Source: a virus | Taxonomy: Duplodnaviria > Heunggongvirae > Uroviricota > Caudoviricetes | Length of the DNA: 42,229 nt | Direction: 5' to 3' (one strand) | IMG/VR virus record: IMGVR_UViG_2718217897_000004 | Position numbers and translations under genes: made by a program | Shown: positions 892 to 42,229 of the stretch, piece after piece | How the letters are laid out: each line of letters begins with the position of its first letter | How positions within the stretch are numbered: the first letter of the stretch is position 1 | Notes under the pieces: model-generated | Database searches by the model: none | What the model saw: the letters and a program-made list of their open reading frames with translations, nothing else | What the model was told of the DNA's origin: nothing

Positions 892-981
892 GGAGAGATG
901 CCGGAGCGGCTGAACGGACCGGTCTCGAAAACCGGAGTGGGGGCAACTCCACCGGGGGTTCAAATCCCCCTCTCTCCGCCA
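892..981 (+). tRNA. serU: tRNA-Ser (anticodon CGA), prophage attachment site
   Basis: 90-nt sequence GGAGAGATGCCGGAGCGG...CTCGAAA...GGTTCAAATCCCCCTCTCTCCGCCA with long variable arm and anticodon loop containing CGA; integrase gene lies 53 nt downstream. Confidence 0.9.
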
Positions 982-1033: not shown

Positions 1034-2059
1034 TTACTTGGAATATTTTCTTGGAATATTTTCAGGTAACGGGACATCAAGTGTTGGTGAAACTTTAACC
1101 TTCCTGTCATAGATTAGCACTTGCCCTTCGGTTTTGTGACCAGAGAAAAGTTGCTTATCCCGGCTGCTTCCTTCATAGTCTGAAATTCCTTTCGCCTTCA
1201 GATCATGAAAGGTGAAGTCGGTTAAAATACCTGAAATTTTTCCAGCACGATTTCTTGCTTCTACCCACATTTCGTTAAAGCCTTTGTACATATATCGGTT
1301 GCCGTATTGATTGCTGATCACATAGGCAGATTTTGGTAACTGTTTTGCTTTTTCGATCGCTGCCTGTAATCGTGGACTCCATGCTTTTATCTGTTTTTTT
1401 CCGGTTTTCCCTTGCTGGATGAATATCCCGTCGTTTCCAATCTGTTCCCATTTCAGCGATAACACATCGGAAACCCTCGCTGCACACAGATAGGCAATTT
1501 CCATTGCGATAAAAACAGGAAGAGGTGCAACGCTTAATACTTCCTGGTATTCTTTGTCGGTTACATATCGTTCGCGGTTTTTGGCCTTGAATTTACTTAC
1601 ACCTGCACATGGGTTAGCCTTCACGTACCCTCGCTCATACCCCCAACTGTAAACACGGGACATACTGCTTTTTTCATGGTTGGCTTGCGTTTTACTCTGC
1701 TCCCCTCTTTTGTCCATGTATCGACGGATGTGTTCTGGTTTTATGGAATCCGCTGGTACCTTACCGAATACGGCAAGCAACTTTTTTTGATGTTGCAGAT
1801 AATCTTTTTGTGTTCTTGGACTAAGGTCACTGTAATAGGCGCTGGCGAGGAATTTTTCCCACAAGCGACCGAATGTCATTGCACGATCGCGATTATTTAC
1901 AGTTTCCTCATACTTTTTCCATAAAGCAGCTAAACCATCCTTGATGGCGGTTAGTGTGACAGATTCTCTGGATGTTGGTTTCCATACATAACTATATTTA
2001 TTTGGGTATACATTTGGAGGTAATTTTTCGTGTTCAGGATTTTTCCTTCGTCTTCCCAT
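1034..2059 (-). CDS. int: Phage integrase, tyrosine site-specific recombinase
   Basis: 341-aa ORF reading toward the tRNA; typical position and size; stop/start overlap with the upstream excisionase ORF. Confidence 0.88.
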   Translation of the reverse strand: MGRRRKNPEHEKLPPNVYPNKYSYVWKPTSRESVTLTAIKDGLAALWKKYEETVNNRDRAMTFGRLWEKFLASAYYSDLSPRTQKDYLQHQKKLLAVFGKVPADSIKPEHIRRYMDKRGEQSKTQANHEKSSMSRVYSWGYERGYVKANPCAGVSKFKAKNRERYVTDKEYQEVLSVAPLPVFIAMEIAYLCAARVSDVLSLKWEQIGNDGIFIQQGKTGKKQIKAWSPRLQAAIEKAKQLPKSAYVISNQYGNRYMYKGFNEMWVEARNRAGKISGILTDFTFHDLKAKGISDYEGSSRDKQLFSGHKTEGQVLIYDRKVKVSPTLDVPLPENIPRKYSK

Positions 2060-2320: not shown

Positions 2321-4747
2321 TTAAAAATCAGCCTGACTCGGGATCAGTTTTTGCCAGATAGCTGAAACGTATTTTGCCTGGTAACGAGCGTCATCAAGTG
2401 CATTATGGCGCTCACCTTCGAATGGGATAGCAGTTCTGGCATCGAAGTCTATGGCTTTCCCCAGCTCAACGATTGTGCGTACATCGCGATCGTTGCAGTA
2501 GCGCCACGGGCAGGGGATACCCTGTCGTTCGTATGAACGGCGTAAAATCACGTTGTCGAAGTTGGCCCCATTACCCCAGACCTGAACAAAAAATTCACCG
2601 GAGTTTTCGTCGATAAATTCCCGCAATTGCAGTAGTGCATCATCTAACGGGATTTCATCGGTCATAATGGCAGACTGCGCCTCACGTGATTGCTTCAGCC
2701 ACCATTTAATGACGTCACGATCAATGACTCCGCCAGCAGTATCCAGATCGATGGTCTTGCTAAATTCCGGTCCCATATCTCCGGTTTGTGGATCGAAAAA
2801 TATTGCGCCTATTGAGATAATCGGGGCATCGGGATTTTTTCCCATGGTTTCAAGGTCGATCATCAGATGAATCCCCGCTCTGCTGGTGGATGTGAGTTTA
2901 TGATGACCATTCACCTTAATTAAGGGATCTGTCGCCTCGCCAGTTTTATTATCGCTGGCGTGATGCTGATTGCCGCCAGGGTTCTCCTTGTGTGGATGTT
3001 CAGCGCCTTCCATTTCCTCCGGAACATTTTCCTGAACTTCAACCTGATTCTCTTCATCGAATGTTTCCTGGTATGTTGCGTCGCCCATCACCGCGCCACA
3101 ATCAGGGCAGTTGCCGCCACCCCTCTGACCGCAGGCGGTGCAGACTTTTTCCGGTTCCTGTTGCGCTACTGGTTCGGATTGTTTCGTTTCTGGCTCGTTT
3201 TGTAACGCATTTGGGCTGTTTTGTTCCGCTTTTTGGTCGTTCCGTTCCGATTCATGCTGGTTCTGGTTCACAGAATCGCGAGTCTGGATCCCCTTGACCC
3301 ATTTCGGATCATTAGGGTCGCTAATCCCCTCAACAAATTCACCACGCGATACAGCAAGTAACTTATCGGCGTCAGGCTGGCTGATATTGGCTGCCTGCAT
3401 AATTTTGTTTACTTCGTCAGCGGTGACTTTTACTTGGTTAGCGGAACTCACCTGCGACTGAACGTTCTGGCAATGTTCAGTTGTATCCGGTTCCATTGTT
3501 TCAGTTGTTGCCTGTTCACCTGCCATTGCGTCAGATGGTTGTGGTTTTTCTTCCTCTGTTTCACGTTCAGTAACCACCTCGCGGTTAATTTCTTCCAGGA
3601 TATCTTTTTCCGGCGTATGCCGGGCAGCTGTGAGAGTTTCCTTGCTGGGGTTCTCGTGATCAGTTTCCGTCAAATAGGCGTTGATATACCCCTGAAGGCG
3701 TCCCGGGTAGTGATAAAATTCAGGGTGTGCGCTTCGGATAAGTGCAAAAATAGCGGCGCGGGAATAGTCCAGAATACCCGGGGTTGCACGAAGTGCTGCG
3801 GACCATTCTTTGAACGGACTTTCTTTTTTCAGGACTACTTCTTTTGCGCGACGATAAACGCTGCCCGGAATTTCATAAATATTAAAATCCATCGGAAGTG
3901 TGGCTGCTGCAATCTCCACATCCAGTGTGTCGAGGGTGTGTACTAAATTCGGATTGCGATCGGTTTTGTTCCCACCGCCAGCATTAGCACCGGAAGCCGT
4001 GCGGGTGATGCGTGAAACACGATTTCCTTTCATCCACTCTTTTGTCAGCAGACCCCGATCAATGTAGTCAGCGTCCAGGTATGCTTCGAAAAAAGCAGTT
4101 ATTAGTCCCAGGTCTGAATTACCAGGATTAGGGAAAACTTTGTCAGTGTCACGAACCAGTTTGTGGAGGTCGCGAATCTCCAGCGAGTCGAGCAGACTGG
4201 TTTTATGCGAAATAGCCAGAGCAGTAACAGCCGGTAGTTCTTCAGCCCGTGCAATGTGTAATGCCTGGAGTTCGTCGCGTGAAACGTGCGTTACTGGTTT
4301 TTCGCTGCCGTGTTGAGCAAGCCAACGAATGGGCAGTTCCTGACCGGAGACAGGCAGAAGCATGCTCTCCTCAATCTCAGTCATGTCTTCGCCGTTGATG
4401 TTGGTATTGTCAGTGCTGGCTGGTTTGTCCTGAACAGAGGGGGAAGGGCCGATAAATGTCATTGTGATGCCATCTTTCCCGCCTTTTTCATAGCGGTTGC
4501 AGAATTCAGTATCAAACACGCCTTCTGGCGGAAGGTCGTCAACAACGGGCAAATTGACGCGGACGGGTTTTTTAAAGTCGTCTTCATCATAATCGTTGTC
4601 ATCCATTGCGGTAATGCAGCGGGAGATTGCAACAGATAATTTTTTTGCTGTAGTCCAGTAAAAACCACCTTTAATTCCCAGGCGTTTTCTTACTTTGTCA
4701 TTTTTTGCTTCGCAATATAGTGCAAATTCTTCTTTATCAGTGCTCAT
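2321..4747 (-). CDS. Phage exonuclease: large N-terminal region with Cys4 zinc ribbon fused to a C-terminal DnaQ-like (DEDDh) 3'-5' exonuclease domain (of the kind annotated exodeoxyribonuclease VIII in prophages)
   Basis: 808-aa ORF; C-terminal MIDLETMG...WGNGANFDN...HNALDDARY motifs fit exonuclease motifs I-III; CTACGQRGGGNCPDCG zinc ribbon mid-protein; occupies the exo/recombination slot of the leftward operon. Confidence 0.75.
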   Translation of the reverse strand: MSTDKEEFALYCEAKNDKVRKRLGIKGGFYWTTAKKLSVAISRCITAMDDNDYDEDDFKKPVRVNLPVVDDLPPEGVFDTEFCNRYEKGGKDGITMTFIGPSPSVQDKPASTDNTNINGEDMTEIEESMLLPVSGQELPIRWLAQHGSEKPVTHVSRDELQALHIARAEELPAVTALAISHKTSLLDSLEIRDLHKLVRDTDKVFPNPGNSDLGLITAFFEAYLDADYIDRGLLTKEWMKGNRVSRITRTASGANAGGGNKTDRNPNLVHTLDTLDVEIAAATLPMDFNIYEIPGSVYRRAKEVVLKKESPFKEWSAALRATPGILDYSRAAIFALIRSAHPEFYHYPGRLQGYINAYLTETDHENPSKETLTAARHTPEKDILEEINREVVTERETEEEKPQPSDAMAGEQATTETMEPDTTEHCQNVQSQVSSANQVKVTADEVNKIMQAANISQPDADKLLAVSRGEFVEGISDPNDPKWVKGIQTRDSVNQNQHESERNDQKAEQNSPNALQNEPETKQSEPVAQQEPEKVCTACGQRGGGNCPDCGAVMGDATYQETFDEENQVEVQENVPEEMEGAEHPHKENPGGNQHHASDNKTGEATDPLIKVNGHHKLTSTSRAGIHLMIDLETMGKNPDAPIISIGAIFFDPQTGDMGPEFSKTIDLDTAGGVIDRDVIKWWLKQSREAQSAIMTDEIPLDDALLQLREFIDENSGEFFVQVWGNGANFDNVILRRSYERQGIPCPWRYCNDRDVRTIVELGKAIDFDARTAIPFEGERHNALDDARYQAKYVSAIWQKLIPSQADF

Positions 4748-15769: not shown

Positions 15770-15845
15770 GGCCCTTTAGCTCAGTGGTAAGAGCGAGCGA
15801 CTCATAATCGCCAGGTCGCTGGTTCAAATCCAGCAAGGGCCACCA
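15770..15845 (+). tRNA. tRNA with CAU anticodon, Ile2(LAU)-like (ileX/ileZ-like)
   Basis: 76 nt, acceptor GGCCCTT/AAGGGCC, anticodon loop CTCATAA; resembles recalled ileX. Confidence 0.8.
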
Positions 15846-15846
15846 G

Positions 15847-15923
15847 CCGCCACTAGCTCATCAGGAAAGAGCGTCAACCCTTTAAGTTGAGTGTGCGAGG
15901 TTCGAGTCCCCGGTGGCGATCCA
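15847..15923 (+). tRNA. tRNA-like gene of uncertain isotype (possibly degenerate)
   Basis: Cloverleaf can be drawn but with C1-A72 mismatch, one T-stem mismatch and anticodon loop CCTTTAA (C at position 33; anticodon would be UUU). Confidence 0.4.
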
Positions 15924-15925
15924 GT

Positions 15926-16001
<76 letters not shown>

Positions 16002-16004
16002 TAT

Positions 16005-16079
<75 letters not shown>

Positions 16080-17004: not shown

Positions 17005-17538
17005 ATGAACGCAATAATCAGATACGGCCTGTCGGCTGCCGTTCTGGCACTGATTGCCGTCGGTGCGCCCGCGCCTGATATTCTCGACCAGTTTCTGGAT
17101 GAAAAAGAAGGTAACCACACAACGGCATACCGCGATGGTTCCGGCATCTGGACCATCTGTCGGGGTGCCACGATGGTGGATGGAAAACCCGTTTTTCCCG
17201 GTATGAAACTGTCGAAGGAAAAATGCGACCAGGTCAACGCCATTGAGCGTGATAAGGCGCTGGCATGGGTGGAGCGCAATATTAAAGTACCACTGACCGA
17301 ACCACAAAAAGCGGGTATCGCGTCATTTTGTCCCTATAACATTGGCCCCGGTAAGTGTTTTCCATCGACGTTTTATAAGCGGCTGAATGCTGGTGATCGT
17401 AAGGGCGCATGCGAGGCGATTCGCTGGTGGATAAAAGATGGTGGGCGCGATTGCCGCATACGTTCAAATAACTGCTATGGACAGGTTATTCGTCGTGACC
17501 AGGAAAGCGCATTAGCCTGTTGGGGAATAGATCAGTGA
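17005..17538 (+). CDS. SAR endolysin (T4-lysozyme-type, glycoside hydrolase family 24)
   Basis: 177 aa; N-terminal weakly hydrophobic Ala/Gly-rich signal-anchor-release segment; E...D...T catalytic spacing ([23 protein letters not shown]). Confidence 0.85.
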
Positions 17539-34319: not shown

Positions 34320-37300
34320 ATGGGTAAAGGCAGCAGTAAGGGGCATACCCCGCGAGAAGCGAAGGACAACCTGAAATCCACGCAGTTGCTGAGTGTGATT
34401 GATGCCATCAGTGAAGGGCCGATTGAAGGTCCGGTGGATGGATTAAAAAGCGTGCTGCTGAACAGTACGCCGGTGCTGGACACTGAGGGGAATACCAACA
34501 TCTCCGGTGTCACAGTGGTGTTCCGGGCAGGTGAGCAGGAGCAGACTCCGCCGGAGGGATTTGAATCCTCCGGCTCCGAGACGGTGCTGGGTACGGAAGT
34601 GAAATACGACACGCCGATCACCCGCACCATCACGTCTGCAAACATCGACCGTCTGCGCTTTACCTTTGGTGTGCAGGCACTGGTGGAAACCACCTCAAAG
34701 GGTGACCGGAATCCGTCGGAAGTTCGCCTGCTGGTTCAGATACAACGTAACGGTGGCTGGGTGACGGAAAAAGACATCACCATTAAGGGCAAAACCACTT
34801 CGCAGTATCTGGCCTCGGTGGTGGTGGGTAACCTGCCGCCGCGCCCGTTTAATATCCGGATGCGCAGGATGACGCCGGACAGCACCACAGACCAGCTGCA
34901 GAACAAAACGCTCTGGTCGTCATACACCGAAATCATCGATGTGAAACAGTGCTACCCGAACACGGCACTGGTCGGCGTGCAGGTGGATTCGGAGCAGTTC
35001 GGCAGCCAGCAGGTGAGCCGTAATTATCATCTGCGCGGGCGCATTCTGCAGGTGCCGTCGAACTATAACCCGCAGACGCGGCAATACAGCGGTATCTGGG
35101 ACGGGACGTTTAAGCCAGCATACAGCAACAACATGGCCTGGTCTCTGTGGGATATGCTGACCCATCCGCGCTACGGCATGGGGAAACGTCTTGGTGCGGC
35201 GGATGTGGACAAATGGGCGCTGTATGTCATCGGCCAGCATTGCGATCAGTCGGTGCCGGACGGTTTTGGCGGCACGGAGCCGCGCATCACCTGTAATGCG
35301 TACCTGACCACACAGCGTAAGGCGTGGGATGTTCTCAGTGATTTCTGCTCGGCGATGCGCTGTATGCCGGTATGGAACGGACAGACGCTGACGTTCGTGC
35401 AGGACCGACCGTCGGATAAGGTGTGGACCTATAACCGCAGTAATGTGGTGATGCCGGATGATGGCGCGCCGTTCCGCTACAGCTTCAGCGCCCTGAAGGA
35501 CCGCCATAATGCCGTTGAGGTGAACTGGATTGACCCGAACAACGGCTGGGAGACGGCGACAGAGCTTGTTGAAGATACGCAGGCCATTGCCCGTTACGGT
35601 CGTAATGTTACGAAGATGGATGCCTTTGGCTGTACCAGCCGGGGGCAGGCACACCGCGCCGGGCTGTGGCTGATTAAAACGGAGCTGCTGGAGACGCAGA
35701 CCGTGGATTTCAGCGTCGGCGCAGAAGGGCTTCGCCATGTACCGGGCGATGTTATTGAAATCTGCGATGATGACTATGCCGGTATCAGCACCGGTGGTCG
35801 TGTGCTGGCGGTGAACAGCCAGACCCGGACGCTGACGCTCGACCGTGAAATCACGCTGCCATCCTCCGGTACCACGCTGATAAGCCTGGTTGACGGAAGT
35901 GGCAATCCGGTCAGCGTGGAGGTTCAGTCCGTCAACGACGGCGTGAAGGTAAAAGTGAGCCGTGTTCCTGAGGGTGTTGCTGAATACAGCGTATGGGGGC
36001 TGAAGCTGCCGACGCTGCGCCAGCGCCTGTTCCGCTGCGTGAGTATCCGTGAGAACGACGACGGCACGTATGCCATCACCGCCGTGCAGCATGTGCCGGA
36101 AAAAGAGGCCATCGTGGATAACGGGGCGCACTTTGACGGCGAACAGAGTGGCACGGTGAATGGTGTCACGCCGCCAGCGGTGCAGCACCTGACCGCAGAA
36201 GTCACTGCAGACAGCGGGGAATATCAGGTGCTGGCGCGATGGGACACACCGAAGGTGGTGAAGGGCGTGAGCTTCCTGCTCCGTCTGACCGTAACAGCGG
36301 ACGACGGCAGTGAGCGGCTGGTCAGCACGGCCCGGACGACGGAAACCACATACCGCTTCACGCAACTGGCGCTGGGGAACTACAGGCTGACAGTCCGGGC
36401 GGTAAATGCGTGGGGGCAGCAGGGCGATGCGGCGTCGGTATCGTTCCGGATTGCCGCACCGGCAGCACCGTCGAGGATTGAGCTGACGCCGGGCTATTTT
36501 CAGATAACCGCCACGCCGCATCTTGCGGTTTATGATCCGACGGTACAGTTTGAGTTCTGGTTCTCGGAAACGCGGATTACGGATATCAGGCAGGTTGAAA
36601 CCACAGCCCGCTATCTTGGCACGGCGCTGTACTGGATAGCCGCCAGTATCAATATCAAACCGGGCCATGATTATTATTTTTACATCCGCAGTGTGAACAC
36701 CGTTGGCAAATCGGCATTTGTGGAGGCTGTTGGCCAGCCGAGTGATGATGCATCCGGCTATCTGGATTTTTTCAAAGGAGAGATAGGGAAAAGCCATCTG
36801 GCTCAGGAGCTGTGGACGCAGATTGATAACGGTCAGCTTGCGCCTGACCTGGCTGAAATCAGGACGTCCATTACGGATGTCAGCAATGAAATCACGCAGA
36901 CCGTCAATAAGAAACTGGAAGACCAGAGTGCGGCAATTCAGCAGATACAGAAGGTTCAGGTTGATACAAATAATAACCTGAACAGCATGTGGGCTGTGAA
37001 GCTGCAGCAGATGCAGGACGGACGCCTTTATATCGCGGGTATTGGTGCCGGTATTGAGAATACCCCTGACGGTATGCAGAGTCAGGTGCTGCTGGCGGCG
37101 GACAGGATTGCGATGATTAATCCTGCGAATGGCAACACAAAGCCGATGTTTGTTGGTCAGGGCGATCAGATATTTATGAATGAAGTGTTCCTGAAATATC
37201 TGACGGCTCCCACCATTACCAGCGGCGGTAATCCTCCGGCATTTTCCCTGACACCGGACGGGCGGCTGACGGCAAAAAATGCCGATATCAGCGGTAACGT

Positions 37301-37799
37301 GAATGCGAACTCCGGGACGCTCAACAACGTCACGATTAACGAGAACTGCCGGGTTCTGGGAAAACTGTCCGCGAACCAGATTGAAGGCGATCTCGTTAAA
37401 ACAGTGGGCAAAGCTTTCCCCCGGGACTCCCGTGCACCGGAGCGGTGGCCATCAGGGACCATTACCGTCAGGGTTTATGACGATCAGCCGTTTGACCGGC
37501 AGATTGTTATTCCGGCGGTGGCATTCAGCGGCGCTAAACATGAGAGAGAGCATACTGATATTTACTCCTCATGCCGTCTGATAGTGCGGAAAAACGGTGC
37601 TGAAATTTATAACCGTACCGCGCTGGATAATACGCTGATTTACAGTGGCGTTATTGATATGCCTGCCGGTCACGGTCACATGACGCTGGAGTTTTCGGTG
37701 TCAGCATGGCTGGTAAATGACTGGTATCCCACAGCAAGTATCAGCGATTTGCTGGTTGTGGTGATGAAGAAAGCCACCGCAGGCATCAGTATCAGCTGA
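34320..37799 (+). CDS. Host specificity protein J (central tail fibre / tip attachment)
   Basis: 1159 aa beginning [37 protein letters not shown] as recalled for lambda J. Confidence 0.9.
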
Positions 37800-37866: not shown

Positions 37867-38466
37867 ATGCGTAAAGTTTGTGCAGCCATTTTGTCCGCAG
37901 CCATCTGTCTGTCCGTATCCGGTGCGCCTGCATGGGCATCTGAACATCAGTCCACGCTGAGCGCGGGGTATCTTCATGCCTCGACGAACGTTCCCGGCAG
38001 CGATGATCTTAACGGGATTAACGTGAAATACCGTTATGAGTTTACGGACACGCTGGGGCTGATTACGTCATTCAGTTATGCCAACGCTGAAGATGAGCAA
38101 AAAACGCATTACAGCGATACCCGCTGGCATGAAGATTCCGTGTGTAACCGCTGGTTCAGCGTGATGGTGGGGCCGTCTGTGCGCGTGAATGAATGGTTCA
38201 GCGCGTATGCGATGGCGGGTATGGCTTACAGCCGTGTGTCGACTTTCTCCGGGGATTATCTCCGCGTAACTGACAACAAGGGGAAAACGCACGATGTGCT
38301 GACCGGAAGTGATGACGGTCGCCACAGCAACACGTCTCTGGCGTGGGGAGCTGGCGTGCAGTTTAACCCGACCGAATCCGTGGCCATTGATATTGCTTAT
38401 GAAGGCTCCGGCAGTGGTGACTGGCGCACTGACGGTTTCATCGTGGGTGTCGGTTATAAATTCTGA
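37867..38466 (+). CDS. lom: Lom/Ail-family outer-membrane beta-barrel protein
   Basis: 199 aa with signal peptide and C-terminal ...GVGYKF beta-barrel ending; flanked by terminators at 37818-37843 and 38493-38520. Confidence 0.88.
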
Positions 38467-38530
38467 TTAGCCAGGTAACACAGTGTTATGACAGCCCGCC
38501 GGTTCAGGCGGGCTTTTTTGTGGAGTGGAT

Positions 38531-40936
38531 ATGGCAGCAGTAAAAATCTCAGGTGTGCTGAAAGATGGTGCGGGAAAACCAATACAGAACTGCACTATTC
38601 AACTGAAGGCAAAGCGTAACAGCACCACGGTACTGGTGAACACGGTGGCTTCTGAAAATCCGGATGAAGCCGGACGTTACAGCATGGATGTTGAGTATGG
38701 CCAGTACAGCGTCACCCTGCTGGTTGAAGGTTTTCCGCCTTCACATGCCGGGACCATTACCGTCTATGAAGGCTCCAGACCAGGTACGCTGAATGATTTT
38801 CTCGGTGCCATGACGGAAGATGATGTCATGCCGGAGGCATTGCGTCGTTTTGAGGCAATGGTGGAAGAAGTGGCACGCAACGCCGAAGCCGCCTCTCAGA
38901 GCGCAGCGGCGGCAAAGAAATCCGAAACTGCAGCGGCATCATCAAAGAACGCGGCGAAAACCTCAGAAACGAATGCAGCTAATAGTGCACAGGCGGCAGC
39001 GACCTCAAAGACTGCATCGGCAAACTCCGCGACAGCAGCCAAAAAATCAGAAACCAACGCGAAAAATAGCGAGACAGCCGCAAAGACGAGCGAAACCAAC
39101 GCAAAGTCCAGCCAGACGGCAGCGAAAACCAGCGAAACGAATGCCAAAGCCAGTGAAACTGCGGCGAAAAGCAGTCAGGCTGCAGCAGCCCAAAGCGAGA
39201 GCGCGGCAGCCGGTTCTGCGACTTCAGCAGCTGGATCAGCAACTGCTGCGGCTAACAGCCAGAAAGCTGCGAAGACGAGTGAAACTAACGCAAAGTCCAG
39301 CCAGACGGCAGCGAAGACCAGCGAAACGAATGCCAAAGCCAGTGAAACTGCGGCGAAAAGCAGTCAGGATGCAGCGGCCCAAAGCGAGAGTGCCGCAGCC
39401 AGTTCTGCAAGCGCGGCGGCTGCTTCTGCCACTGCATCAGCTAACAGTCAAAAAGCAGCAAAAACCAGTGAAACCAACGCAAAGGCGAGCGAGACTGCGG
39501 CGGCGAACTCGGCGCAAGCATCGGCAGCAAGCCAGACAGCAGCTAAAGCAAGTGAAGACGCAGCCAGAGAGTATGCAAGCCAGGCAGCGGAGCCGTATAA
39601 ACAAGTTTTGCAGCCGTTGCCCGATGTGTGGATACCGTTTAATGATTCACTGGATATGATTACGGGCTTTTCGCCATCATATAAAAAAATTGTTATTGGC
39701 GACGATGAAATAACAATGCCTGGCGACAAGATTGTAAAGTTTAAACGCGCATCGAAAGCAACTTACATTAATAAATCTGGTGTGCTGACAGAGGCTGCCA
39801 TTGACGGGCCACGATTTGAACGTGATGGCCTGCTTATTGAGGGGCAAAGAACTAACCTGCTAATCAATTCAACAAATCCGACTAAATGGAACAAGTCGTC
39901 AAATATGATCTTAAGTGCATCAGGTGTAGATGATTTCGGATTCCAGTACGCAAAATTTACATTAAAACCAGAAATGGTAGGGCAAATTTCAGCGATTAAC
40001 ATAGTAACCGTTTCCGGCAGTAAAGGTTTTGATGTAACAGGCGGAGAAAAGTATGTAACCATATCATGCAGGGTGCAAAGTGGCACTCCAAATTTAAGAT
40101 GCCGATTACGATTTGAAAACTATGATGGTTCTACCTACACATTCTTAGGTGACGCTTACTTAAATACGACAGATTTATCTATTGATAAGACGGGTGGTGC
40201 CGCTAATCGCATTACTGCAAGGGCTGTTAAAGATGAAGCAAGCAAATGGATCTTTTTTGAGGCGACAATTAAGGCACTTGATACAGAAAATATGATAGGT
40301 GGAATGGTTCAGTATGCCCCGGCAAAAGGAGTGGGCACTGGCGCGGATGATTATATTTATATTGCGACCCCTCAAGTTGAAGGTGGGGCGTGCGCTTCAT
40401 CGTTTATTATAACAGGCGCATCCCCTGTAACACGCGCCAGCGATATTGTAACGGTCCCCATTTCTCTAAATTGGTGCAATCCCGCTATTAGTTCATTAGC
40501 AGAAGTTAATACCAATTGGGATGAATCGCCAAACAAAGAAGGTAGCGCACGTATTCTTAATATTTCCACTACGGGAGATACAACTGAAATTGCAGATGAA
40601 AGTTATATGTATTTGGGGTATACATCTTTGGGAGCACGCGCAATCATTACAAATGGTAAAGGCACTAAAATAGAATATAAAAGCGTTATAGAACGACCAG
40701 AGAGAAAAAGCATTATCGGCTTTAGATTCACAGAAAGTCGAGAATTGTGTGTTGTGGTTAACGGTAATATTGGTGCTAAGGTAGTTTCTCCTTATAAAAA
40801 ACACAAATATACAGGAGGCTTCATTAATATTGGTGGTCAATCATCATCCGGCAACCGTCACCTATTTGGACACGTTCGAAATCTGCGTATTTGGCACAAG
40901 GCATTGACTGATGCTCAGATGGGGGAGTCAATCTAA
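38531..40936 (+). CDS. Side tail fibre protein (lambda Stf-like N-terminus; Ala/Ser/Thr-rich repeat shaft; distinct C-terminal domain)
   Basis: N-terminal MAAVKISGVLKDGAGKPIQNCTIQLKAKRNSTTV... matches recalled lambda Stf; C-terminal about 440 aa is visibly more AT-rich and ends ...NLRIWHKALTDAQMGE, which resembles a LamG/ConA-like lectin motif. Confidence 0.85.
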   Translation: MAAVKISGVLKDGAGKPIQNCTIQLKAKRNSTTVLVNTVASENPDEAGRYSMDVEYGQYSVTLLVEGFPPSHAGTITVYEGSRPGTLNDFLGAMTEDDVMPEALRRFEAMVEEVARNAEAASQSAAAAKKSETAAASSKNAAKTSETNAANSAQAAATSKTASANSATAAKKSETNAKNSETAAKTSETNAKSSQTAAKTSETNAKASETAAKSSQAAAAQSESAAAGSATSAAGSATAAANSQKAAKTSETNAKSSQTAAKTSETNAKASETAAKSSQDAAAQSESAAASSASAAAASATASANSQKAAKTSETNAKASETAAANSAQASAASQTAAKASEDAAREYASQAAEPYKQVLQPLPDVWIPFNDSLDMITGFSPSYKKIVIGDDEITMPGDKIVKFKRASKATYINKSGVLTEAAIDGPRFERDGLLIEGQRTNLLINSTNPTKWNKSSNMILSASGVDDFGFQYAKFTLKPEMVGQISAINIVTVSGSKGFDVTGGEKYVTISCRVQSGTPNLRCRLRFENYDGSTYTFLGDAYLNTTDLSIDKTGGAANRITARAVKDEASKWIFFEATIKALDTENMIGGMVQYAPAKGVGTGADDYIYIATPQVEGGACASSFIITGASPVTRASDIVTVPISLNWCNPAISSLAEVNTNWDESPNKEGSARILNISTTGDTTEIADESYMYLGYTSLGARAIITNGKGTKIEYKSVIERPERKSIIGFRFTESRELCVVVNGNIGAKVVSPYKKHKYTGGFINIGGQSSSGNRHLFGHVRNLRIWHKALTDAQMGESI
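39101..39408 (+). repeat. Near-identical direct repeat (about 120 bp, two copies, 189-bp period) within the tail-fibre shaft
   Basis: 39101-39219 and 39290-39408 differ at only a few positions; encode repeated ...KTSETNAKSSQTAAKTSETNAKASETAAKSSQ... Confidence 0.6.
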
Positions 40937-41217
40937 TGAAAGATTTAACACTCAAATTTGCCGACAGGGCCGACTTTTCGGCCTTTATGGGAAGTATTGG
41001 CTATTATAATGACGAGTCGATGCAGGATGATATTCTGATTGATGTGATAGGTAACGTGTACAAAGAAACCGGAGAGCTGACTGAAGATGGCGAACCGGTA
41101 TGTGTTAAGGAAGATGGATATTTTGTAAACGTGCGCATCATTAAGGATACGCAAATATCGTCATTATTCGATGAATACGCGGTTGCTGTTGAGCATCAAC
41201 TTCGTGGCTGGATGTGA
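40936..41217 (+). CDS. Hypothetical acidic protein following the tail fibre gene
   Basis: 93-aa ORF overlapping the stf stop by 1 nt. Confidence 0.4.
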   Translation: MKDLTLKFADRADFSAFMGSIGYYNDESMQDDILIDVIGNVYKETGELTEDGEPVCVKEDGYFVNVRIIKDTQISSLFDEYAVAVEHQLRGWM

Positions 41218-41226
41218 GGTAGAGAA

Positions 41227-41931
41227 ATGGCTACATCAACAGTAATTCCGGGAGACATCACCACGCTGAAGGGAGATGTTAGTAAAGCAAAGGAAGATAT
41301 TTCCTCTATTAACGGAAAAGTATCAACGCTTCAGACTGATATGGCCAGTGCAAAGCAGGATATCAGCACCAGATACACAAAAACTGAAGTTGATAATAAG
41401 CTGAAAAACAAAGTGGAAGTGAACGATCTGGAAAGTGGTCGTTATGGCGGAGATTTTTACCCGCTGACTGGCCGTGAAGCGTTTTATTTATGGGGATTGG
41501 GCACAACTACAGCGGCGGCAAATCTTTATCTTAATCCTGACCCTGCAATTTCGTCTGTGCTGCGGTCAACATCGTCTATCCGCTATAAACATTCAGTAGA
41601 GACGATAGATTCAGAGCACGCCGATCTCATTTTCAGGATGCGCCCTGTGTGGTACAGGTCGCAATGCGAAAATGACAGGCGTGACTGGGGATTCTATGGA
41701 TTGATTGCCGAGGAAGTTGGAGAAATTGCCCCTCAGTTTGTTCACTGGCGACCAGCCAACGAAGATGATGCACCGGAAACCATTTCCAGCAATGGCCTTG
41801 TTGCCGAAGGTGTAATGTACGAACGTCTGGTTGTTCCACTGATTCACCATATCCAGAAGCTGACTGAAAGAGTTGATGAACTTGAGTCAGAATTAAAGTT
41901 GTTATCCGTTTCCCGAAGCGATATCGGATAA
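41227..41931 (+). CDS. Short tail-fibre-like protein: N-terminal coiled coil plus C-terminal intramolecular chaperone (peptidase S74-like) domain
   Basis: 234 aa; heptad-like N-terminus; C-terminal SSIRYKHSV...DWGFYGLIAEEVGEIAPQFV resembles the endosialidase/tail-fibre chaperone signature. Confidence 0.5.
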   Translation: MATSTVIPGDITTLKGDVSKAKEDISSINGKVSTLQTDMASAKQDISTRYTKTEVDNKLKNKVEVNDLESGRYGGDFYPLTGREAFYLWGLGTTTAAANLYLNPDPAISSVLRSTSSIRYKHSVETIDSEHADLIFRMRPVWYRSQCENDRRDWGFYGLIAEEVGEIAPQFVHWRPANEDDAPETISSNGLVAEGVMYERLVVPLIHHIQKLTERVDELESELKLLSVSRSDIG

Positions 41932-41941
41932 AGGAGGCGTA

Positions 41942-42229
41942 ATGGATATAACACCTTTCCTTCATGCACTTTGTGCTGTGGCTGCGCAGGTACTGGTTGG
42001 TCTTTTTACCGGAAACTGGGCTTACGGGGCGATAGCTGGTTGTACGTTCTTCATTGCGCGTGAACATACCCAGGCAGAATATCGCTGGATTGAAATGTTC
42101 GGGCATGGCAAGCGGATTAACATGCCGTGGTGGGGCGGTTTTGATCCACGTGCATGGGATGTGGCAAGCCTGATGGATTTTGCTGTGCCGGTGGTGGCGT
42201 GTCTGCTGATCTGGATGTTGATCCGTTAA
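41942..42229 (+). CDS. Small membrane protein at the distal end of the tail-fibre region
   Basis: 95-aa ORF with GGAGG SD; predicted TM helices at both ends; stop codon is the last 3 nt of the window. Confidence 0.45.
   Translation: MDITPFLHALCAVAAQVLVGLFTGNWAYGAIAGCTFFIAREHTQAEYRWIEMFGHGKRINMPWWGGFDPRAWDVASLMDFAVPVVACLLIWMLIR

What the first reader, a model, noticed from the sequence alone, without database searches (positions are those of the whole stretch)
40936..42229. Distal genes after the tail fibre, including a 95-aa membrane protein at the window edge
The far end of lambdoid tail regions is a recognised cargo hotspot. Here it holds a 93-aa acidic protein, the short S74-domain protein and a 95-aa two-helix membrane protein, none assignable; the region continues beyond the window.
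Basis: inference. Interest (0 to 1): 0.4.

Follow-up and report, generated by a model that had tools for sequence, protein, structure and literature searches.

The report
Tail-fibre accessory genes plus membrane protein
The last 1.3 kb of this E. coli prophage holds two standard side-tail-fibre accessory genes and one very common but uncharacterised small inner-membrane protein gene; that gene is the last gene of the prophage, so no further cargo lies beyond the window.

Summary
The three ORFs are real: 93 aa at 40936-41217, 234 aa at 41227-41931 and 95 aa at 41942-42229.

The 93-aa acidic protein and the 234-aa S74 protein are not cargo. Together with the Stf C-terminal domain they form a low-GC lateral-tail-fibre module. 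Strictly virulent T1-like, T5-like and 9g-like phages carry the same module.

The window ends on the stop codon of the 95-aa gene. In a 100% identical E. coli chromosome, about 350 nt without annotated genes or ORFs over 48 aa follow. Then come attR (a partial tRNA-Ser copy) and the host gene zinT. Nothing more is hidden downstream.

The 95-aa protein has three helices, not two. It belongs to an unannotated family (phrog_1443) with no Pfam, PDB or defence-library match, and occurs in 35% of complete E. coli genomes. It recurs immediately after tail-fibre or tailspike genes in siphoviruses, myoviruses and podoviruses from several bacterial classes. It also occurs as a stand-alone chromosomal gene.

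It is absent or decayed in the virulent phages examined that carry the same or similar fibre or tailspike modules. I therefore read it as a lysogeny-associated accessory membrane protein; its mechanism is unknown. Overall the finding is ordinary, with one worthwhile lead.

The parts
38525..40936 (+). Side tail fibre gene stf (803 aa). It has a phage_tail_N N-terminus, an Ala/Ser-rich repeat shaft, and a low-GC C-terminal half homologous to the RcGTA head-spike fibre Rcc01080.
   Evidence: Pfam PF08400, 5.5e-67. phrog_1419 over the full length. NF048003 GTA_spike_fiber at residues 437-638. PDB 6TB9, E 6.5e-5. The C-terminal half has GC 40.9% against 55.0% for the N-terminal part.
40936..41217 (+). 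orf93: a small acidic alpha+beta protein that always follows this type of fibre gene. It is probably an Stf-specific assembly or accessory protein and sits where tfa sits in lambda.
   Evidence: phrog_1361, 2.7e-44. tblastn finds it in 179 phage records, including virulent T1-like, T5-like, rV5-like and 9g-like phages; in every record examined it lies directly 3' of the fibre gene. Each of the seven upstream fibres compared shares the window Stf C-terminus to its last residue. pI 4.19. AlphaFold2 pLDDT 81; the best fold matches are generic and weak.
41227..41931 (+). orf234: a short fibre protein. It has an N-terminal docking peptide, a coiled coil, a short tip and a C-terminal S74 intramolecular-chaperone domain.
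   Evidence: PF13884 at residues 116-172. It matches the C-terminal 240 positions of the 1,385-position fibre profile phrog_3299, E 2.3e-140. Full-length homologues at about 60% identity occur in at least 36 listed records of virulent T1-like phages of about 48-52 kb. PDB 8hqz 'L-shaped tail fiber assembly', residues 952-1068, E 1.2e-7.
41227..41304 (+). N-terminal adaptor of orf234, about 26 aa (MATSTVIPxDIxxLK...). It is shared with alternative second-fibre proteins of 225-576 aa.
   Evidence: Alignment A3 and the N-terminal comparison of lambdoid, 9g-like, T5-like and T1-like versions. phrog_4563 positions 1-32.
41572..41931 (+). S74 intramolecular-chaperone domain of orf234, with a candidate Ser116/Lys121 dyad.
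   Evidence: S116 and K121 are invariant in alignment A3. Pfam match. PDB match to the C-terminus of the L-shaped tail fibre.
41932..41937 (+). AGGAGG ribosome-binding site of orf95, 4 nt before the ATG. Only 10 nt separate orf234 from orf95.
   Evidence: Read directly from the sequence. No sigma-70-like site was found on the + strand upstream.
41942..42229 (+). orf95: a three-helix inner-membrane protein of family phrog_1443, and the last gene of the prophage. Its signature is H8, R40-E41-x-x-Q44-A45-E46-Y47-R48, W72, D79 and P83.
   Evidence: phrog_1443, 4.2e-58. AlphaFold2 pLDDT 94.9. Alignments A1 and A2. 438 representative clusters. No Pfam, NCBIfam, PADLOC, PDB or BFVD match. GC 51.7%. 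Followed by attR in L001.
892..981 (+). tRNA-Ser(cga), the attL end of the prophage. Its 3' 31 nt (951-981) recur exactly about 380-410 nt beyond the right edge of the window, as attR.
   Evidence: ARAGORN. Exact 31-mer shared with L001 10674-10704. A 59-nt partial copy with 2 mismatches.
1034..2059 (-). 341-aa ORF next to attL, presumed to be the integrase from its position. Its product was not searched.
   Evidence: ORF list. Its position next to the tRNA is direct observation; the function is inferred.

Best explanation
The segment is the distal end of the prophage's side-tail-fibre module plus one accessory gene, and the prophage then ends.

(1) orf93 and orf234 belong with the Stf C-terminal domain as a horizontally exchanged lateral-tail-fibre cassette. 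orf93 sits where tfa sits in lambda and overlaps the stf stop codon. I infer that it is the cognate assembly or accessory protein of the RcGTA-head-spike-like Stf tip.

(2) orf234 is a short trimeric coiled-coil fibre. Its roughly 26-aa N-terminal peptide would dock it onto the Stf complex. Its C-terminal S74 domain would fold the trimer and then cut itself off at Ser116. The result would be a branched side fibre, analogous to LtfA/LtfB of phage DT57C. Docking and cleavage are inferred, not shown.

(3) orf95 is a separate unit: a three-helix inner-membrane protein of a widespread cellular and phage family. It rides next to receptor-binding-protein genes in temperate phages. Charge counts predict that the N-terminus and the invariant 34-residue loop face the cytoplasm. 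I propose that it is a lysogeny-associated accessory, or moron-type, protein. It would act at the cytoplasmic face of the inner membrane on a conserved host component, such as a lipid-carrier or envelope-glycan step or the DNA-entry route. The benefit would go to the lysogen, through superinfection exclusion or surface conversion. This last step is inference only.

(4) About 350 nt after orf95 lies attR. No further genes follow.
For: Prophage end:
- A 100% identical locus shows orf95, then no annotated gene, then a partial tRNA-Ser copy, then zinT.

Fibre module:
- orf93 homologues occur in 179 phage records and lie directly after the fibre gene in every locus examined, including virulent KarlJaspers, EC100 and ESCO3.
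- All seven upstream fibres compared share the Stf C-terminus.
- orf234 has full-length homologues in virulent T1-like phages.
- Its N-terminal adaptor is shared with 225-576-aa alternatives at the same position.
- It has an S74 domain with a conserved Ser/Lys.
- The Stf C-terminal half, orf93 and orf234 are low-GC (41-45%), against 52% for orf95.

orf95 as a separate accessory gene:
- The same protein, at over 90% identity, accompanies different fibre sets.
- It is absent from the virulent phage loci examined that carry the same module (L005, L016, L017).
- In virulent phage ZCEC08 it is a frameshifted remnant lying after the endosialidase gene.
- In P22-like phage Gally it follows the late terminator and an AT-rich spacer holding a promoter-like site. 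It occupies the slot between tailspike and int.
- It lies next to fibre or tailspike genes in Halomonas, Leclercia, Salmonella, Citrobacter, Comamonas, Pantoea, Chelativorans and Desulfovibrio elements.
- Stand-alone chromosomal copies exist in Aeromonas and in alpha-proteobacteria.
- It is under purifying selection, dN/dS 0.17.
- It occurs in 1,898 of 5,426 complete E. coli genomes.
- K/R counts are 6.05 per sequence on the N-tail plus loop side against 0.71 on the other side.
Against: - No function has been shown for any of the three proteins.
- In the window orf95 lies 10 nt after orf234, with no detectable promoter and no canonical terminator. It is probably co-transcribed with the late genes. 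That fits a late function as well as it fits a lysogenic one.
- Intact homologues sit inside structural operons: phiHAP-1, the Leclercia P2/HP1-like prophage, and between two Salmonella tailspike genes. One also lies in a 236-kb Aeromonas phage whose lifestyle I did not establish.
- The strict conservation of polar residues across bacterial classes is unusual for known exclusion proteins.
- Adjacency to receptor-binding-protein genes may only reflect that these genes end late operons, where accessory genes tend to accumulate.
- orf234 might act in trans as a chaperone rather than as a virion fibre. The GenBank record of BASEL phage KarlJaspers names its homologue 'putative lateral tail fiber chaperone'.
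Confidence: 0.6

Rival explanations
1. orf95 is a late-acting helper of the receptor-binding proteins or of virion release. For example, it could be a membrane platform or receptor-masking factor needed during lytic growth, rather than a lysogenic accessory gene.
For: - The spacing to orf234 is 10 nt, with a strong ribosome-binding site and no promoter.
- Its start overlaps the tail-fibre-assembly gene in phiHAP-1.
- It starts the base after the S74 tail-fibre gene ends in a Leclercia P2/HP1-like prophage, with more tail genes downstream.
- It lies between two tailspike genes in Salmonella.
- An intact copy lies next to a tail-fibre gene in the 236-kb Aeromonas phage ACP1.
- The adjacency recurs across three virion morphotypes.
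Against: - Virulent phage loci carrying the same Stf-orf93-orf234 module lack it entirely.
- It has decayed to a frameshifted remnant in virulent ZCEC08.
- One protein at over 80% identity serves lambdoid siphoviruses and a P22-like podovirus with unrelated receptor-binding proteins.
- Chromosomal copies exist outside prophages.
- In Gally it lies after the late terminator.
Confidence: 0.2
2. orf234 is a trans-acting folding chaperone for Stf, which lacks an S74 domain of its own. On this reading it is not a structural second fibre.
For: - S74 domains are chaperones for trimeric fibres; this is established for endosialidases and T5 pb1 (my own knowledge).
- Stf ends without an S74 domain.
- The homologue in the BASEL phage KarlJaspers is annotated 'putative lateral tail fiber chaperone'.
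- The 234-aa form lacks the roughly 190-aa globular domain of the 346-351-aa variants.
Against: - Known S74 domains act in cis on the chain that carries them.
- orf234 has its own coiled coil and tip, which equal the C-terminus of long fibres (phrog_3299).
- Its N-terminal peptide is shared with bona fide fibre proteins of up to 576 aa at the same position.
- Phages of the mEp460 and phage 21 type have the same class of Stf and the orf93 homologue, but no gene in this slot.
Confidence: 0.25
3. orf95 is a holin, an antiholin or another lysis-cassette component.
For: - It is a small protein with three transmembrane segments.
- In Comamonas, Acidovorax and Pantoea prophages, the family member lies 116-340 nt upstream of a phage lysozyme gene.
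Against: - In those prophages a separate holin-like ORF sits between it and the lysozyme gene.
- In the window the only lysozyme homologue found lies far away, at 17005-17538.
- It has no charged C-terminal tail.
- Its 34-residue loop is highly conserved, which is unlike holins.
- Stand-alone chromosomal copies exist.
Confidence: 0.05
4. All three genes are cargo of unknown function at a tail-end hotspot, with more cargo downstream.
For: No Pfam or NCBIfam name exists for orf93 or orf95. The position at the far end of the late region is a known accessory-gene site.
Against: orf93 and orf234 are conserved in strictly virulent phages as part of the fibre module. attR follows directly.
Confidence: 0.05

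Closest known systems
Branched lateral tail fibres LtfA/LtfB of T5-like phage DT57C (PMC4728585, PMC10713586)
   Same: A long proximal fibre protein is followed by a second fibre gene whose product is thought to attach through the first. The fibre C-terminus carries an S74-type chaperone domain: PDB 8hqz 'L-shaped tail fiber assembly' matches orf234 residues 109-222. T5-like phage EC100 has the same stf, 92-aa gene and second-fibre layout as the window.
   Different: DT57C has no small gene between ltfA and ltfB; its gp107 to gp109 are contiguous. The window's second protein is only 234 aa. Attachment of orf234 to Stf has not been shown.
Lateral tail fibre locus of BASEL Drexlerviridae, e.g. 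KarlJaspers bas06_0037, bas06_0036 and bas06_0035
   Same: The gene order is the same: the fibre gene, a 92-aa gene overlapping its stop codon, then a 225-aa S74 protein. The last is about 62% identical to orf234 over 93% of its length.
   Different: KarlJaspers is a virulent phage. It has no orf95 homologue downstream. The fibre N-terminus differs.
Lambda Stf/Tfa
   Same: The position after J and lom is the same. Both have a phage_tail_N N-terminus and a small gene overlapping the fibre stop codon at the tfa position.
   Different: orf93 matches no Pfam family, including any tail-fibre-assembly family, at E up to 0.1. The Stf tip resembles the RcGTA head spike and not the lambda Stf tip.
Accessory and conversion genes placed after receptor-binding-protein genes in temperate phages: P22 gtrABC, Sf6 oac, P2 Z/fun, lambda lom. 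These placements are recalled from my own knowledge.
   Same: orf95 occupies the same kind of slot. It lies after the last fibre gene in lambdoids, between tailspike and int in P22-like Gally, and after the tail-fibre-assembly gene in a myovirus. In Gally it forms an autonomous unit after the late terminator.
   Different: orf95 shows no sequence or fold similarity to anything named in the libraries searched. It is too small to be a glycosyl- or acyltransferase. Its predicted conserved face is cytoplasmic.
Inner-membrane superinfection-exclusion proteins: T4 Imm, P22 SieA, HK97 gp15. These are recalled from my own knowledge.
   Same: They are small prophage- or phage-encoded inner-membrane proteins.
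   Different: No homology was detected. orf95 also has chromosomal orthologues and invariant polar residues across bacterial classes, which is atypical for such proteins.

Membership tests
Peptidase_S74 intramolecular-chaperone tail fibres or spikes (orf234) | Match to Pfam PF13884 above the gathering score | tested here: met
   27.2 bits against a cut-off of 22, at residues 116-172.
Peptidase_S74 intramolecular-chaperone tail fibres or spikes (orf234) | Conserved Ser and Lys catalytic dyad five residues apart at the start of the domain | tested here: met
   S116 and K121 are invariant in alignment A3 with the Tritos, ESCO3 and PhiR47_1 proteins. The dyad spacing is from my own knowledge of endosialidase.
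Peptidase_S74 intramolecular-chaperone tail fibres or spikes (orf234) | The domain lies at the C-terminus of a trimeric fibre or spike | tested here: met
   The domain occupies the last roughly 120 residues, after a coiled-coil region. It aligns to the C-terminus of the 1,076-aa L-shaped tail fibre, PDB 8hqz.
Peptidase_S74 intramolecular-chaperone tail fibres or spikes (orf234) | Autoproteolytic release of the domain after folding | not testable with these tools
   Needs protein expression and mass spectrometry.
Lateral-tail-fibre small accessory protein, phrog_1361 (orf93) | Full-length profile match | tested here: met
   E 2.7e-44, residues 1-93 against profile positions 1-92 of 92.
Lateral-tail-fibre small accessory protein, phrog_1361 (orf93) | Located immediately 3' of a fibre gene with the phrog_1419-type (RcGTA-spike-like) C-terminus | tested here: met
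   The start overlaps the stf stop codon. Seven homologous loci show the same layout, and their fibres align to the last residue of the window Stf.
Lambda Tfa-type tail fibre assembly protein (orf93) | Sequence match to a tail-fibre-assembly family in Pfam or NCBIfam | tested here: not met
   No Pfam family at E up to 0.1 and no NCBIfam family at E up to 0.01. No PDB sequence match. Only the position is analogous.
phrog_1443 small membrane protein family (orf95) | Full-length profile match and the family signature H8, R-E-x-x-Q-A-E-Y-R, W72, D79, P83 | tested here: met
   E 4.2e-58. The signature residues are conserved in alignments A1 and A2 and in 117 representatives.
Moron (autonomous accessory unit in a phage genome) (orf95) | Own promoter upstream and terminator downstream | tested here: inconclusive
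   In the window there is a 10-nt gap, no sigma-70-like site, and a downstream hairpin without a T-run. In P22-like Gally the late terminator, an AT-rich spacer with TTAAGA-18-TAGAAT and a ribosome-binding site precede the gene.
Moron (autonomous accessory unit in a phage genome) (orf95) | Base composition differs from the flanking genes, and the gene is present or absent between otherwise homologous genomes | tested here: met
   GC is 51.7%, against 40.9-45.5% for the Stf C-terminal half, orf93 and orf234. The gene is absent from KarlJaspers, EC100 and ESCO3, which carry the same module.
Holin (orf95) | Adjacent to an endolysin gene, with a charged C-terminal tail | tested here: not met
   The only lysozyme homologue found in the window is at 17005-17538. 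The protein ends ...LIWMLIR. Where a lysozyme gene is nearby in other taxa, a separate holin-like ORF intervenes.
Known anti-phage defence proteins, PADLOC-DB (all three ORFs) | Profile match | tested here: not met
   No families at E up to 0.1.

The most novel reading that the evidence does not exclude
The phrog_1443 family, represented here by orf95, could be an unrecognised class of inner-membrane proteins functionally coupled to glycan-directed receptor-binding proteins. The family is spread across Alpha-, Beta- and Gammaproteobacteria and Desulfovibrio.

One possibility is a new superinfection-exclusion or envelope-glycan-modulating mechanism. It would act from the cytoplasmic face of the membrane on a conserved host component. 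Phages would have captured it from a cellular gene, and it would travel with tail-fibre and tailspike modules.
Probability: 0.25. Interest if true: 0.6.

Novelty: new member of a known kind. Interest (0 to 1): 0.35.

Why it matters
For annotation, the result closes the question. The prophage right end lies about 0.4 kb past the window. Two of the three 'unknowns' are standard lateral-tail-fibre parts shared with virulent phages, so they should not be counted as cargo.

The useful lead is orf95. It is present in about a third of complete E. coli genomes, often in several copies, and is always annotated 'hypothetical'. It is confidently modelled yet has no structural or family match. It recurs next to receptor-binding-protein genes in all three tailed-phage morphotypes. 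If it proves to be an exclusion or surface-conversion factor, it would be one of the most common prophage-borne ones in E. coli. It could be tested easily, because lab strains derived from BL21(DE3) already carry it.

Tried and rejected
Searches on orf95 and orf93 that found nothing:
- orf95 has no family hit in Pfam, NCBIfam or PADLOC.
- A PDB sequence search with the orf95 family profile found nothing.
- Foldseek with the high-confidence orf95 model gave no hit at E below 0.3 in either PDB or BFVD. One exception was a 42-aa fragment from another coliphage.
- The orf93 model gave only generic, weak fold matches, such as PII and ribosomal protein S10, with TM-scores of at most 0.47. Its PDB profile search was also empty.

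Ideas considered and dropped:
- A K+-channel-like reading of 'WWGGFD' in orf95. Channel structures appeared only at E above 7.
- Rfam on the tail region. It found only the tRNA-derived attR sequence.
- A holin role for orf95, rejected for the reasons given under the rivals.

Literature: six full-text searches found no paper on any of the three proteins.

Technical dead ends:
- The search for related loci with the divergent alignment A2 failed because it had no conserved stretch.
- The IMG/VR scan returned only near-identical E. coli copies, so it added no diversity.
- The 93-aa profile did not hit the Comamonas or Pantoea loci. Their small intervening ORFs look homologous only by eye, through shared DVIG, TG, G[YF]xxN and R-x-[WF] motifs.

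Full report
**Observation.** The window is a lambdoid E. coli prophage integrated at tRNA-Ser(cga). The tRNA is at 892-981, and a 341-aa ORF presumed to be the integrase lies at 1034-2059 on the minus strand. Downstream of J (34320-37799) and a 199-aa ORF at 37867-38466, annotated Ail/Lom in the identical RefSeq locus, lies an 803-aa stf gene (38525-40936).
- The 93-aa protein is acidic, with pI 4.19.
- The 234-aa protein carries Peptidase_S74 above Pfam's threshold.
- The 95-aa protein is hydrophobic, but AlphaFold2 (pLDDT 94.9) gives three helices, at 4-23, 26-53 and 74-94.
- All three have strong PHROG matches. RefSeq annotates all three in a 100% identical chromosome.

**What lies beyond the window.** The window stops on the TAA of orf95. 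In NZ_CP100486.1 (locus L001) the next roughly 350 nt contain no annotated gene and no ORF longer than 48 aa. A 59-nt partial copy of the tRNA-Ser 3' end then follows. It has 31 nt identical to window 951-981 and two differences in the variable arm. Host zinT, msrQP and hiuH come next. Rfam sees only this tRNA-derived piece. orf95 is therefore the last gene of the prophage. The expectation of further cargo is refuted.

**orf93 and orf234 are fibre-module genes.** tblastn finds orf93 homologues in 179 phage records. In every record inspected, the homologue lies directly after a side or lateral tail-fibre gene, and where the start was checked it overlaps that gene's stop codon. The records include:
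- strictly virulent phages, namely Drexlerviridae (KarlJaspers), Tequintavirus (EC100), Nonagvirus (ESCO3), Dhillonvirus and rV5-like phages;
- temperate lambdoids such as phage 21, mEp460_4F5 and Tritos.

Each of the seven upstream fibres compared aligns with the window Stf through to its last residue. That C-terminal region is homologous to the Rhodobacter GTA head-spike fibre Rcc01080 (NF048003; PDB 6TB9, E 6.5e-5).

orf234 has full-length homologues, at about 60% identity over 93% of its length, in at least 36 listed records of virulent T1-like phages. It also equals the last 240 positions of a 1,385-position fibre profile (phrog_3299, 2.3e-140). Its first roughly 26 residues (MATSTVIPxDIxxLK...) are shared with alternative proteins of 225, 294, 346, 351 and 576 aa. 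These occupy the same slot in T1-like, lambdoid, 9g-like and T5-like phages. Ser116 and Lys121 at the start of the S74 domain are conserved. The domain matches the C-terminus of a solved L-shaped tail fibre (PDB 8hqz, E 1.2e-7).

The Stf C-terminal half, orf93 and orf234 are all low-GC (40.9%, 42.2% and 45.5%). The window as a whole is 50.2% and the Stf N-terminal part 55.0%. This marks an imported cassette.

The most economical reading is a branched side fibre. Stf would carry the GTA-spike-like tip. orf93 would be its cognate accessory or assembly protein at the tfa position. orf234 would be a short second fibre that docks by its N-terminal peptide and matures by S74 self-cleavage. The precedent is the LtfA/LtfB fibres of DT57C (PMC4728585, PMC10713586). 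A trans-chaperone role for orf234 remains possible.

**orf95 is a different kind of gene.**
- *Composition.* Its GC content of 51.7% differs from the cassette.
- *No known relatives.* It has no Pfam, NCBIfam or PADLOC hit, no PDB sequence hit and no fold match.
- *Family size.* An exhaustive profile search finds 438 representative clusters at 50% identity.
- *Signature.* The family is defined by H8, R40-E41-x-x-Q44-A45-E46-Y47-R48, W72, D79 and P83.
- *Topology.* K+R counts are 6.05 per sequence on the N-tail plus loop side, against 0.71 on the turn plus C-tail side. This predicts N-in, a cytoplasmic conserved loop, and C-out.
- *Prevalence and selection.* In E. coli it occurs in 1,898 of 5,426 complete genomes, with a median of 2 and up to 7 copies, including a BL21(DE3) derivative. 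It evolves under purifying selection, with dN/dS about 0.17 and residues 36-58 invariant among 49 alleles.

**Genomic context of the orf95 family.** Among lambdoids the same protein, at over 90% identity, follows different fibre sets. These are stf plus a 92-aa gene only (mEp460_4F5, Lambda_4C10), or stf plus a 93-aa gene plus a 234-, 294- or 346-aa second fibre.

Outside lambdoids it sits in these positions:
- between the tailspike gene and int in P22-like Gally, after a strong late terminator and an AT-rich spacer with a promoter-like site;
- overlapping the tail-fibre-assembly gene of the Halomonas myovirus phiHAP-1;
- starting the base after an S74 tail-fibre gene ends, in a Leclercia P2/HP1-like prophage;
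- between two pectate-lyase tailspike genes in Salmonella;
- after a tailspike gene in Citrobacter, Leclercia and Desulfovibrio elements;
- after Stf-C-like fibres, with a small orf93-like ORF in between, in Comamonas and Pantoea;
- overlapping an Stf-C-like, LamG-type fibre gene in Chelativorans;
- after small tail-fibre proteins in Pantoea and Comamonas terrae;
- after a giant gpJ in Comamonas testosteroni;
- beside a tail-fibre gene in a 236-kb Aeromonas phage.

Other members are plainly chromosomal. In several Aeromonas species the gene lies next to pirin, and in some alpha-proteobacteria next to ligA, with no phage genes nearby.

The virulent phage loci carrying the same Stf-orf93-orf234 module lack the gene. 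The virulent phage ZCEC08 keeps only a frameshifted, stop-containing remnant without the central motif, directly after its endosialidase gene.

In beta-proteobacterial prophages the gene lies upstream of a lysis cassette. A distinct holin-like ORF intervenes there.

**Interpretation of orf95.** Several observations argue against a virion-assembly role:
- the gene accompanies unrelated receptor-binding proteins unchanged;
- it is lost or decayed in the virulent phages examined;
- it forms an autonomous unit in Gally;
- its composition differs from its neighbours;
- cellular homologues exist.

These favour a host-derived accessory gene that benefits the lysogen and is carried along with receptor-binding-protein modules. 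The cytoplasm-facing conserved polar cluster suggests action on a conserved inner-membrane or lipid-linked process, rather than on surface receptors. Superinfection exclusion at DNA entry, or modulation of envelope-glycan synthesis, are the most plausible effects. Both are inference.

Against this reading, in the window the gene is 10 nt from orf234 and has no promoter of its own. Several homologues also sit inside structural operons. A late function therefore cannot be excluded, and I give it about 0.2. The adjacency to receptor-binding-protein genes may partly reflect that these genes close late operons, where accessory genes tend to accumulate.

**Comparison and novelty.** The fibre part is a new member of a known kind: lateral or side tail-fibre cassettes with S74-terminated fibres, and branched fibres. 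orf95 belongs to a catalogued but uncharacterised PHROG. Six literature searches found no description of it. Its recurrent linkage to fibre and tailspike genes across morphotypes and bacterial classes is the only unexpected element.

**Verdict.** Interest is 0.35.

Noticed in passing
window 38525-40936 (L001 6596-8599 in NZ_CP100486.1): RefSeq annotates stf as a pseudogene 'missing C-terminus', yet the 803-aa ORF is intact. Its C-terminal 433 aa resemble the Rhodobacter GTA head-spike fibre Rcc01080 (PDB 6TB9) and do not resemble a classical Stf tip. This probably explains the mis-call.
   Followed up: partly
window 892-981 versus L001 10646-10704: The attL tRNA-Ser and the attR partial copy differ at two positions. 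The changes are compensatory in the variable-arm stem (GTGGGGGCAACTCCAC against GTAGGGGCAACTCTAC). The reconstituted tRNA therefore carries a phage-derived but still base-paired arm.
   Followed up: partly
window 15770-16079: The prophage carries a cluster of four tRNA genes (Met-cat, Lys-ttt, Thr-tgt, Gly-tcc). It lies upstream of the ORFs at about 16.6-18.0 kb, which include the window's lysozyme homologue (17005-17538).
   Followed up: no
window about 38870-39560 (Stf residues about 115-345): The Stf shaft is made of Ala/Ser/Thr-rich repeats of the type AAKTSETNAKSSQT. The opposite strand and other frames show long spurious ORFs here.
   Followed up: no
L022 5714-6001; L035 5484-5999; L039 5432-5998: Comamonas and Pantoea prophages have a small ORF between an Stf-C-like fibre gene and the orf95-family gene. 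By eye it shares the orf93 motifs DVIG, TG, G[YF]xxN and R-x-[WF]. In two cases it is fused to a C-terminal extension of about 75-95 aa. The orf93 profile did not detect these ORFs.
   Followed up: partly
L013 about 3970-4160 (phage vB_Eco_ZCEC08): An unannotated, frameshifted remnant of the orf95 family lies directly after the endosialidase gene of a virulent phage. Matches of the same extent (residues 41-93, 41.5% identity) occur in phages 6947, ST1UNAM, PBM-2 and PBM-3.
   Followed up: partly
L011 4789-5288 (phage Gally): This is a textbook accessory-gene layout: the late-operon terminator, an AT-rich spacer with a promoter-like site, then the orf95 homologue. It occupies the slot between tailspike and int.
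   Followed up: partly
L006 6001-6309 (Aeromonas rivipollensis chromosome); also L023 and L024: A 57%-identical orf95 homologue is a stand-alone chromosomal gene next to a pirin gene. In L006 it lies between pirin and RIO1, near two lipid A acyltransferase genes, with no phage genes nearby. This suggests a cellular origin for the family.
   Followed up: partly
L004 3139-5555 (Lambda_4C10): An IS element with three 'mobile element protein' genes is inserted after a shortened stf gene. SitABCD manganese-transporter cargo follows the orf95 homologue. In other lambdoids, therefore, real cargo does sit just beyond this gene.
   Followed up: no
L171 2049-5451 (Rosetta2(DE3), a BL21(DE3) derivative): A prophage remnant between coaA and a truncated uvrY retains a tail-protein gene, the orf93-orf234-orf95 trio and a tail-fibre-assembly fragment. 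All three genes of the trio are intact.
   Followed up: no
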